Of a stretch of 64,000 bases of DNA, positions 26,001-29,000 are shown one piece after another. Origin of the DNA: Escherichia coli (GTDB taxonomy: Bacteria; Pseudomonadota; Gammaproteobacteria; Enterobacterales; Enterobacteriaceae); the NCBI RefSeq assembly GCF_041886205.1, contig NZ_CP169029.1. One strand, given 5' to 3'. The position numbers are program-made. Numbering within the stretch: the stretch's first letter is position 1; the number at the start of each line of letters is the position of its first letter.

Positions 26001-29000
26001 AAGCCAGACGCATTGCCGACCCAGGGCTGCAGCCGGAGCGCACATCACTGGCGTGGTTTCGTACCATGCTGGGCTACGGCGCGTTGGTGGCGTTGGCTAT
26101 CAAACACAACTGGCACCAGGCGGGCATGTTATTCTGGATTTCGATTGGCATCCTCGCCATCGTGGCGCTGATCCTCTGGCACTACACCCGTAATCGCAAT
26201 TTAATGGATGTCACGAATAGCGATTTTTCCCAATTTCACGTAGTCCGTGACAAATTTTTGATCTCCCTCGCGGTGTTATCTCTCGCAATACTGTTTGCTG
26301 TAACGCATATACATCAACTTATCGTATTTATTGAGAGAGTCGCATGACAGGAAGTCAGGTCATTGATGCTGAAGAGGACAGGCATAAACTGGTTGTAGAG
26401 TATAAGGATGCTCTACAACCTGCTGATTTTTATCACAATTTCAAACAGCGAGGCATTCGCTCCGTACAGCTCATTCCCTATCTTGAATTTGATGACCGGG
26501 GCGATCTGACGGCCGCTTCGGTGACAGCAGAGCTGTGGGGGAAATTTTTAATTGCCCTGTTCGAGTGTTGGGTGCGGGCAGATATCAGTCGTATCTCGAT
26601 TGAGCTTTTTGACGCCACCTTACAAAAATGGTGTGGCAGCGAAAACCCGCAACCGCGCCGTGGCTGCCAGGCGTGCGACTGGCATCGCCTGTGCCCGCAC
26701 GCTCGGCAGGAGACGCCAGACAGCGTGCTTTGTGCGGGCTATCAGGCGTTTTATTCTTACTCCGCACCGCATATGCGGGTGATGCGTGATCTGATAAAGC
26801 AGCATCGTTCTCCCATGGAGCTGATGACGATGCTGCGGTGACGTGCGCTTAAACGGGCTGCCCCTGATGCGACATCCGCGTCGCCAGCGGCAGCCAGCAC
26901 AGCACGATCAACAATCCCATTAAGGTCATCAACAACCCCAGGCTGCCCTGACCGGTTTGCGGCAACATCGCAGAGAGCGACGCCAGCACGCCGGAACCAA
27001 TGTTTTGCAGACCGCCGACCAGCGCGCCAGCCGTGCCCGCCAGGAAGGGGAACGGCTCCATCGCGCCGCTGGTCGCCAGCGGAAACAGCATCCCGGCACC
27101 GAAAAAGAACAGCGCGGCGGGAACGAGCAGCGTCCAGACATTCATCACGCCAAACCAGTCGGGGATCCACATCAGCAAGCCAGCCAGCAGGCAGCAGATA
27201 ACCGACTGCCACATCAACGTTGAGAAGCGTTTATTAGGACGCCCGGCAAACCATGCCCCAAAAAATGCCGCCGGAATCGGCAGAATAAACAAAATACTGA
27301 CCGTCATACTGCTCAGCCCTAACACCGCGCCCATCAGCACGCCGGAGCAGGCTTCAAAGGCAGCAATCCCGGCCAGACCGCCAATCAGCATCAGCAAATA
27401 ACAGTTAAAACCGCTGTTACCGAAAAGCGTTTTATAACTGGTAAGCAGGCGCGTGCGCGGTGCATCGACCGGACGCGTTTCCGGCATCCAGCGGGCCATA
27501 CTGAAGGTCACACCAGCACAAAGAACCAACAAAAAGAGATAACAGGCGCGCCAGTTCCACATCGTATCCAGCAGACCGCCGATTAGCGGTGCGAGCAACG
27601 GACTGACAAGAATCCCCATGTTTAACAAGCTGTTAGCGTGGCGCAACTGTGTCCGTTCATATAAATCTCGCGGCAAAGTACGCGCCATTACGCCGCCAAC
27701 ACCGGTGCCCATCCCCTGCATCGCGCTGGCGGCAATCAATACCGTCAAACTGGAGGTCGTGACCGCGACCAGCGTTGCCAGCATAAAAATGGACATTCCG
27801 ACGAGGATCACTGGTCGGCGACCCACGCGGTCGGATATCGGGCCATAAAACAGCTGTGAGACACCGTAAGTCAGCAGATAAGCGCCCATTACGCTCTGCA
27901 CCGCCCCTTCACGGACGTTGAGATCGCGCGCCATATCGGCAATAGCTGGAATATAAATGGTTTGCGCCATCTGACCGACGGCCACGAGTAATACCAACAT
28001 CAATAACAAATTGACGTTTCTATGCCTTTTCATTATCACGGATGCTTTTATAAAAATAATTAGAATAAGTCACTACGCATTCCCATAAATGCGGGAGAGG
28101 AATCTATCACATTGATGAATGTTAGCCAGATATACGCCAGGAATGGGGAATTGTTTAGCGGCAGAATATGTAAACAAAAGCGGCAATAAATGTTGCCGGG
28201 AGAGATGGTAGGGCGGATAAGATGCGTCAGCATCGCATCCGACACCAACCCGCACGCTAAATATAAAAGGGGAGCGGTTACCCGCTCCCCTTTGGTGCGA
28301 CTTGAATCTGAATTACTTCAGGTATTTCAGAACAGCATCAAGCAGTTGCAGTGCTGCAACAATGAGTTTGAGGATAAGAATGGCGATATCCACCAGGCTC
28401 ATACGCGTCTCCTGTGGTTCAGGAGCACTGCCAGCTGACGTACCTTTCCGCTGCCTGTTGCCAGCTGTTGTGCACGCGGTATCTCAAGGAGAAACGTTGT
28501 GCTTGTTGACATAACACAGTGTGCTCACGCGGGGTTAAGGCGCTGACGGCACCACCCGTTTCAGCCAGGACTTAGTGCGCCGGGTAACGATGCGGCCCCC
28601 GCATAACACATTGCGTACAGTGATATTATAGAAGTTTACTGTATAAATAAACAGTAATATTTAGACAAAACGTAAAGTGTGATCGATACTCAACTATGTA
28701 CTAAATACGTCAAAATTCGTGCCGAAATTGCGCGTTCTGCGCGGAACACGTATACTTTCAGTGTTGACATAATACAGTGTGCTTTGCGGTTACCAGCCGC
28801 AGGCGACTGACGAAACCTCGCTCCGGCGGGGTTTTTTGTTACCTGCAATTCAGTACAAAACGTGATCAACCCCTCAATTTTCCCTTGCTGAAAAATTTTC
28901 CATTGTCTCCCCTGTAAAGCTGTGCTTGTATAAATATTGTTAAACACAAAACCAACAAGGTCCCCAATGACTACTTCCATGTTCAACGCAAAACTACTAC

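What the first reader, a model, noticed from the sequence alone, without database searches (positions are those of the whole stretch)
28505..28783. tisB/istR type I TA locus: antisense target duplicate visible as a 21-nt direct repeat with one G-U wobble
GTTGACATAACACAGTGTGCT (28505-28525, in the tisAB leader about 100 nt upstream of the tisB start) and GTTGACATAATACAGTGTGCT (28763-28783, in the divergent IstR region) differ at one position, which makes a G-U pair in the RNA duplex. This matches the established mechanism in which IstR-1 pairs with the tisAB mRNA upstream of the tisB ribosome standby site. A LexA box (28637-28656) sits between the divergent promoters.
Basis: partly seen in the sequence, partly recalled or inferred. 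Interest (0 to 1): 0.3.

Follow-up and report, generated by a model that had tools for sequence, protein, structure and literature searches.

The report
Known tisB/IstR-1 toxin–antitoxin locus

Summary
GTTGACATAACACAGTGTGCT (28505-28525) and GTTGACATAATACAGTGTGCT (28763-28783) differ only at C28515/T28773. With one more matching T on the left the repeat is 22 nt, and it is the only repeat of this quality within 400 nt in the 64-kb window.

The window is E. coli LHM10-1. The region runs emrD – tisB – tisA ORF – LexA box – istR – ivbL/ilvBN. The tisAB leader and IstR are identical to K-12 MG1655. Rfam's istR model scores 150 bits at 28708-28837.

The tisAB mRNA is read from the minus strand and IstR from the plus strand. 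The direct DNA repeat is therefore a 21-22 bp RNA duplex with one G·U pair, 103-123 nt upstream of the tisB AUG.

Promoter geometry puts the IstR-1 5' end at G28763, and 28763-28837 is the published 75 nt.

Across 24 distinct haplotypes from other enterobacterial and metagenomic loci, 97.5% of positions stay paired. Ten of 22 pairs changed on both sides.

The literature already reports the same 21/22-nt complementarity, standby-site blocking and RNase III cleavage.

Verdict: correct and already known. Minor extras are divergent IstR-like loci that Rfam's model misses, and a tisA start codon that is not conserved.

The parts
28266..28293 (-). tisAB intrinsic terminator (12-bp stem, then a T run)
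   Evidence: inverted repeat I3
28313..28402 (-). tisB CDS, 29-aa hydrophobic toxin MSLVDIAILILKLIVAALQLLDAVLKYLK (N2S variant relative to K-12)
   Evidence: the N2S variant is the dominant allele according to PMC11264685
28399..28512 (-). tisA ORF (37 codons, reported untranslated); its AUG lies inside the IstR-1 target
   Evidence: PMC2826370
28504..28525 (-). IstR-1 binding site and single-stranded part of the ribosome standby site in the tisAB leader (mRNA 5'-AGCACACUGUGUUAUGUCAAC(A)-3')
   Evidence: PMC2577331, PMC6690012
28259..28618 (-). tisAB primary transcript, ends approximate. The +1 is inferred from the -10 box and the published 359-nt length; on this numbering +42 is about 28577 and +106 about 28513
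   Evidence: length from PMC2577331; inference
28591..28616 (-). 5' segment of the +1 tisAB mRNA that is predicted to pair with the 5' half of the IstR target plus the CCCC upstream of it (the inactive +1 fold)
   Evidence: MFE fold; consensus fold of 66 leaders; model from PMC6690012
28625..28630 (-). tisAB promoter -10 box TATAAT
   Evidence: PMC11264685 Table 1
28637..28656 (.). LexA box TACTGTATAAATAAACAGTA, overlapping the tisAB -35/spacer
   Evidence: identical to MG1655
28662..28690 (+). IstR-2 promoter (-35 TAGACA, 17-nt spacer, -10 GATACT)
   Evidence: PMC11264685 Table 1
28698..28837 (+). IstR-2 RNA (about 140 nt; 5' end inferred); the Rfam istR match covers 28708-28837
   Evidence: size from PMC2515195
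28728..28756 (+). IstR-1 promoter (-35 TTGCGC, 17-nt spacer, -10 TATACT), reported to be LexA-independent
   Evidence: PMC11264685 Table 1; PMC2826370
28763..28837 (+). IstR-1 antitoxin RNA (75 nt): 5' antisense segment, stem-loop, terminator hairpin
   Evidence: size from PMC2515195
28763..28783 (+). IstR-1 5' antisense segment GUUGACAUAAUACAGUGUGCU. Nucleotides 1-12 are predicted unpaired (probability at least 0.94)

Best explanation
This is the chromosomal type I toxin-antitoxin module tisB/istR-1 of E. coli.

LexA binds the box at 28637-28656 and represses the leftward tisAB promoter. After DNA damage the roughly 360-nt tisAB mRNA is made. Its 5' end folds back onto the region around 28504-28536, so the primary transcript is not translated. 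Removal of the first 41 nt exposes that region as a single-stranded ribosome standby site. From there 30S subunits with protein S1 reach the structured tisB ribosome binding site about 100 nt downstream.

IstR-1 is a constitutive 75-nt RNA made rightward from its own promoter, starting at G28763. Its first 21 nt are a same-strand DNA copy of the standby region, and therefore its RNA complement. It forms a 21-bp duplex with one G·U pair. This blocks the standby site and creates an RNase III substrate, leaving the inactive +106 mRNA.

Shown here: the sequence anatomy, identity to K-12, the Rfam match, predicted duplex strength and accessibility, and cross-lineage covariation.

Taken from the literature and not tested here: LexA control, processing at +42, standby binding, RNase III cleavage and toxicity.
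For: - Repeat: exact and unique in the window.
- Identity: the window is E. coli LHM10-1 with tisB annotated. The leader and IstR are identical to MG1655.
- Rfam: istR scores 150.1 bits, E = 3e-32, full length.
- Duplex: predicted pairing of IstR-1 nt 1-22 with 28504-28525. The 21-bp duplex is -33.5 kcal/mol.
- Accessibility: IstR-1 nt 1-12 have an unpaired probability of at least 0.94. The energy needed to open the target is 10.6 kcal/mol in the +1 mRNA and 6.8 in the +42 mRNA.
- IstR-1 start: -35 and -10 are conserved at fixed spacing in 62 variants, and conservation begins at G28763.
- Conservation of the repeat: it sits at the same two places in 103 of 105 usable related loci, and in one more with a 1-nt indel.
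- Covariation: 24 haplotype pairs give 97.5% paired cells, 10 of 22 pairs changed on both sides, 0 of 500 shuffles as high, and slid controls 22-48% paired.
- Mismatch types: 10 are wobble-compatible, 5 are incompatible transitions and 3 are transversions.
- 5' sequestering stem: recovered in a consensus fold of 66 leaders.
- Literature: PMC2577331 (the same 22-mer), PMC4147584 (21 nt, RNase III, standby), PMC6690012 (standby site, +42/+106), PMC2826370 (IstR-1 constitutive, IstR-2 LexA-controlled), PMC2515195 (about 75 and 140 nt), PMC11264685 (promoters and standby site over 99% conserved in more than 2,000 E. coli).
Against: Nothing contradicts it. Caveats:
- Transcript ends in this strain are inferred from promoter and terminator geometry and from K-12 data, not mapped here.
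- The thermodynamic difference between +1 and +42 is modest, and the MFE folds are not the probed structures.
- The haplotype pairs were chosen as the best-matching 22-mers at the two positions, which biases the paired percentage upward.
- The metagenome contigs have no organism labels and are related to one another, so the shuffle control overstates independence.
- Some lineages carry a C·A mismatch at position 5.
- Gene conversion between the two DNA copies, rather than selection on pairing alone, could also produce joint change.
Confidence: 0.97

Rival explanations
1. The repeat is a chance match or a neutral leftover of a local DNA duplication, with no role in RNA pairing.
For: Similarity beyond the 22 nt is weakly above shuffles (p about 0.03 in E. 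coli; 18% of related loci at p<0.05). That could be a trace of an old duplication.
Against: It is the only repeat of this quality in 64 kb. It is kept at the same two places in 104 of 105 related loci, even where the sequence itself is wholly different. Its left edge coincides with the IstR-1 start while the 6 nt before it vary freely. Mismatches lean towards wobble-compatible changes. The published experiments also argue against it (PMC4147584, PMC6690012).
Confidence: 0.01
2. The shared sequence is a duplicated promoter or protein-binding element. It contains TTGACA, the consensus -35 hexamer, so it might not be an RNA pairing segment.
For: GTTGACAT carries a perfect TTGACA in both copies.
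Against: In the IstR copy the hexamer lies downstream of a conserved -35/-10 pair, at the transcript start, and not 17 bp upstream of any -10. Many lineages have TTGACG, TTGATA or TTGGCG instead. The conserved block extends 15 nt beyond the hexamer and covaries as a duplex.
Confidence: 0.01
3. The longer, LexA-controlled IstR-2, rather than IstR-1, is the RNA that uses this segment to control tisB.
For: IstR-2 contains the whole IstR-1 sequence, and its promoter abuts the LexA box. Deleting the IstR-2 promoter lowered persister levels in one study (PMC2826370).
Against: In the predicted IstR-2 fold the 21-nt segment is less accessible (mean unpaired probability 0.38, against 0.63 in IstR-1). 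The literature reports that IstR-1 is sufficient and that IstR-2 does not repress tisB translation (PMC11264685, PMC2826370).
Confidence: 0.01

Closest known systems
tisB/istR-1 type I toxin-antitoxin locus of E. coli K-12 (Vogel et al. 2004; Darfeuille et al. 2007; Romilly et al. 2019)
   Same: Same chromosomal position (emrD–ilvB intergenic region). The tisAB leader, LexA box, IstR-1 promoter and the whole IstR RNA are identical, as is the 21/22-nt complementary segment with its single G·U.
   Different: Seven substitutions in 651 bp. One is in the tisB terminator loop and one makes TisB N2S, the allele reported as dominant in E. coli (PMC11264685). [quoted passage not shown] None touches the pairing segments.
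Other divergently encoded type I modules of E. coli: shoB/ohsC, zorO/orzO, dinQ/agrB
   Same: A small hydrophobic toxin with a long structured 5' UTR. A divergent neighbouring sRNA carries a short same-strand copy (about 18-30 nt) of a leader segment far from the RBS. dinQ is also LexA-controlled (PMC4147584, PMC3567139).
   Different: Unrelated toxin and sRNA sequences. Standby-site competition has been demonstrated directly only for tisB.
hok/sok-type cis-antisense type I modules
   Same: An RNA antitoxin blocks toxin translation indirectly and triggers RNase III cleavage. The toxin mRNA must be processed before it becomes active.
   Different: Sok is encoded opposite its target, so the complementarity is perfect and overlapping, and it acts through a translationally coupled leader ORF (mok). 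IstR-1 is encoded about 260 bp away and blocks a standby site. tisA is not translated.

Membership tests
tisB/istR-1 type I toxin-antitoxin module | 29-aa hydrophobic TisB ORF | tested here: met
   ORF 28313-28402(-) encodes MSLVDIAILILKLIVAALQLLDAVLKYLK. RefSeq annotates it as TisB.
tisB/istR-1 type I toxin-antitoxin module | Divergent sRNA gene matching the istR family (Rfam RF01400) | tested here: met
   150.1 bits against a gathering score of 45, full-length 1-130, at 28708-28837(+).
tisB/istR-1 type I toxin-antitoxin module | About 21 nt of complementarity between the IstR-1 5' end and the tisAB leader, about 100 nt upstream of the tisB RBS | tested here: met
   21/22-nt repeat with one G·U, 103-123 nt upstream of the AUG. 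Duplex -33.5 kcal/mol. The same 22-mer is named in PMC2577331.
tisB/istR-1 type I toxin-antitoxin module | LexA box in the tisAB promoter | tested here: met
   TACTGTATAAATAAACAGTA at 28637-28656 has CTG-N10-CAG intact and is identical to MG1655. LexA binding itself was not tested.
tisB/istR-1 type I toxin-antitoxin module | The pairing is under selection (both partners change together across lineages) | tested here: met
   10 of 22 pairs changed on both sides, 97.5% paired, 0 of 500 shuffles as high. Caveats: best-match selection of haplotypes and relatedness of the sequences.
tisB/istR-1 type I toxin-antitoxin module | IstR-1 5' end at the start of the complementary segment | tested here: inconclusive
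   Inferred only. The conserved -10 lies 6 nt upstream, conservation begins at G28763, and 28763-28837 equals the published 75 nt (PMC2515195). No RNA end data exist for this strain.
tisB/istR-1 type I toxin-antitoxin module | Standby-site blocking, RNase III cleavage to +106, TisB toxicity | not testable with these tools
   Taken from PMC6690012 and PMC4147584 for the identical K-12 sequence. With +1 at about 28618, +106 falls at about 28513, inside the predicted duplex.

The most novel reading that the evidence does not exclude
The family may be wider and more plastic than its current Rfam model. Some metagenomic loci (L125, L170, L218, L219) keep the tisAB leader core, a TisB-like ORF and a promoter-plus-terminator sRNA at the IstR position. 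Their 20-nt pairing sequence is completely different, is changed identically in both DNA copies, and the sRNA is not detected by RF01400. This would fit the two same-strand copies co-evolving by short-tract gene conversion rather than by independent compensatory mutations, with IstR-side C-to-U wobbles, such as the E. coli one, as tolerated intermediates.
Probability: 0.2. Interest if true: 0.3.

Novelty: already known. Interest (0 to 1): 0.08.

Why it matters
tisB/istR-1 is the textbook case of an antisense RNA that silences a toxin by competing with ribosomes for a standby site. It links the SOS response to antibiotic persistence. Finding it intact in this strain is expected and adds nothing new. 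The value of the check is that a reader working from raw sequence alone identified the locus, its pairing segment and its LexA box correctly. The cross-lineage data also give independent computational support for the published pairing.

Tried and rejected
This was a poor choice. A metagenome scan anchored in the tisAB leader, written to exclude the E. coli allele, supplied the diversity instead.

2. I tested whether homology between the tisAB leader and IstR extends beyond the 22 nt, which would indicate an old duplication. An AGGCG(A)CTGACG match is only marginal (p about 0.03; 18% of loci at p<0.05), so I make no claim. RNAduplex's 70-nt 'duplex' ignores intramolecular structure and is not taken as real.

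3. The repeat finder showed a third 12-nt 'copy' at 28602-28613. It is not another IstR site. It is the 5' end of the +1 mRNA that pairs with the target region. It looks like a direct repeat only because the core ACACAGTGTG is nearly palindromic.

4. The weak Rfam hit to Pseudomonas P6 at 29091-29148 (20.6 bits against a gathering score of 50) is only the ivbL attenuator/terminator hairpin and was dismissed.

5. TisB is 29 aa, below the 30-residue minimum of the look-up of encoding contigs, so that route to related loci was not available.

Full report
**Observation.** They differ only at position 11, C28515 versus T28773. The repeat finder extends the match by one T to 22 nt, 28504-28525 versus 28762-28783. 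I scanned the whole window for direct repeats of at least 21 nt with at most one mismatch within 400 nt, and this is the only one. The LexA box TACTGTATAAATAAACAGTA is exactly at 28637-28656.

**What the region is.** The window is the first 64 kb of the E. coli LHM10-1 chromosome, NZ_CP037903.1. The gene order is emrD, ysdE, tisB (28313-28402, minus strand), ivbL, ilvBN. The 37-codon tisA ORF (28399-28512, minus) is present but not annotated. Rfam's istR model matches 28708-28837 on the plus strand over its full length, at 150 bits against a gathering score of 45. The RefSeq record does not annotate this RNA. Aligned with MG1655, the 651-bp region differs at seven positions, and none is in the tisAB leader, the LexA box, the IstR-1 promoter or IstR itself. 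One substitution makes TisB N2S, which PMC11264685 reports as the dominant E. coli allele.

**Geometry.**
- tisAB is read leftward. Its -10 TATAAT is at 28625-28630 on the minus strand, and the LexA box overlaps the -35/spacer.
- The published transcript length is 359 nt (PMC2577331) and the terminator is at 28266-28293. Together these put +1 at about 28618.
- On that numbering the target is +94 to +114/115, and the published RNase III product end, +106 (PMC6690012), falls at about 28513, inside the duplex.
- IstR-1 has a -35 TTGCGC (28728-28733), a 17-nt spacer and a -10 TATACT (28751-28756), so +1 is at about G28763. 28763-28837 is 75 nt.
- From the IstR-2 -10 GATACT (28685-28690), 28698-28837 is 140 nt. 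These match the published sizes of about 75 and 140 nt (PMC2515195).
- The repeat therefore begins at the first nucleotide of IstR-1.

**Pairing.** The two genes are divergent, so a same-strand DNA repeat means RNA complementarity. The mismatch places mRNA G opposite IstR U.
- RNAduplex and cofold both pair IstR-1 nt 1-22 with 28504-28525.
- The 21-bp duplex is -33.5 kcal/mol, against -35.4 if it were perfect.
- IstR-1 nt 1-12 are predicted to be open, with unpaired probability of at least 0.94. In IstR-2 the same segment is less accessible (mean over the 21-nt segment 0.38, against 0.63 in IstR-1).
- The energy to open the target is 10.6 kcal/mol in the +1 mRNA and 6.8 in the +42 mRNA. This agrees in direction with the published model, in which the primary transcript hides the standby site.
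- A consensus fold of 66 distinct leaders recovers the long-range stem between the mRNA 5' end and the 5' half of the target plus the CCCC upstream of it.

**Related loci.** My genome-contig scan was badly designed. It yielded only two real loci, Citrobacter werkmanii and Enterobacter sp. Bisph1. A metagenome scan anchored on the conserved leader stem-loop gave 107 loci.
- In 103 of 105 usable loci a 20-22/22 repeat lies at the same two places, spaced 238-271 nt apart. One more locus (L219) has it with a 1-nt indel, and one (L213) has no IstR copy within reach.
- The 24 distinct haplotype pairs give 97.5% paired cells and 10 of 22 pairs changed on both sides. No shuffle out of 500 reached this, and slid controls gave 22-48% paired.
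- Mismatch types are 10 wobble-compatible, 5 incompatible transitions and 3 transversions.
- The E. coli C/T wobble at position 11 recurs in four haplotypes. C. werkmanii has a perfect match.
- Across 62 promoter variants the -35 and -10 of IstR-1 are fixed, the six bases after the -10 vary freely, and conservation starts exactly at the G of GTTGA.
- Caveats: the haplotypes were picked as best matches, the contigs are unlabelled and related to one another, and gene conversion could also produce joint change.

**Within E. coli.** The locus is present in about 4,350 of 5,426 complete genomes. Each 53-nt segment around a repeat copy is at least 99% identical in about 3,570 genomes. The absence from about 20% of genomes fits the reported loss in phylogroup B2 (PMC3318445).

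**Comparison with the literature.**
- PMC2577331 lists AGCACACTGTGTTATGTCAACA as the tisAB sequence antisense to istR.
- PMC4147584 gives 21 nt of complementarity, RNase III dependence and standby competition.
- PMC6690012 defines the standby site and the +42 and +106 mRNA species.
- PMC2826370 states that IstR-1 is constitutive and IstR-2 is LexA-controlled.

**Verdict.** The system is already known, so interest is low.

**Side observations.**
- Divergent TisB/IstR-like loci are missed by RF01400.
- The tisA AUG lies inside the duplex, and in 14 of 24 haplotypes it is ACG, with the matching change in IstR.
- The apparent third repeat copy at 28602-28613 is the 5' sequestering strand of the +1 mRNA.

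Noticed in passing
L125, L181, L199, L200, L170, L202, L218, L219 (metagenome loci): These loci keep the tisAB leader core, a TisB-like 29-aa ORF (for example MRWIEIARVFLKLMVALLQLLEIIVKTFR) and an sRNA with its own -35/-10 and terminator at the IstR position. Their roughly 20-nt pairing sequence is entirely different and is shared by both copies. Of these, L125, L199, L170, L218 and L219 were scanned with Rfam and none reaches the RF01400 gathering score. L125 and L199 also lack any CTG-N10-CAG LexA box.
   Followed up: partly
window 28510-28512 (-): The tisA start codon lies inside the IstR-1 duplex. In 14 of 24 haplotypes from other lineages it is ACG instead of AUG, with the compensating change in IstR. 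This fits tisA not being a translated gene (PMC2826370).
   Followed up: partly
window 28602-28613: A third 12-nt partial copy (CATAACACATTG) of the repeat lies at the 5' end of the tisAB primary transcript. It belongs to the strand that folds onto the target region in the inactive +1 mRNA. It resembles a direct repeat only because the core ACACAGTGTG is nearly palindromic.
   Followed up: yes
window 28396-28398 (-): TisB codon 2 is AGC (Ser), where K-12 has AAC (Asn). PMC11264685 reports the Ser form as the dominant E. coli allele and as more toxic at low induction.
   Followed up: yes
L026, and the L130, L133 and L172 groups: A recurrent non-wobble mismatch at duplex position 5: target copy GTTGGC against IstR GTTGAC, which gives C·A in the RNA. 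It occurs in several lineages, inside the predicted single-stranded seed of IstR-1.
   Followed up: no
L213: This locus has a tisAB leader with the target sequence and a LexA box, but no IstR copy within 340 nt to the right. It may be a rearranged or antitoxin-less locus.
   Followed up: no
window 28708-28837: istR and tisA are not annotated in the RefSeq record of this strain or of MG1655p. Only tisB, ysdE and ivbL appear.
   Followed up: yes
window 28574-28593 (-): The 20-nt tisAB leader segment GCATCGTTACCCGGCGCACT, which Weel-Sneve et al. reported as antisense to the 3' end of uxaA, is present unchanged (PMC2577331).
   Followed up: no
window 511-591(-), 6068-6110(-), 16241-16313(+), 49740-49830(-): Other Rfam matches above gathering score in the window: AsdA (antisense RNA of dnaA mRNA), ES036/CssrF, a ROSE_2 RNA thermometer and tRNA-Sec.
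   Followed up: no
window 28967-29065 (+): The ivbL leader peptide here reads MTTSMFNAKLLPTAPSAAVVVVRVVVVVGNAP and has a different protein accession from the MG1655p copy, so it is an allelic variant.
   Followed up: no
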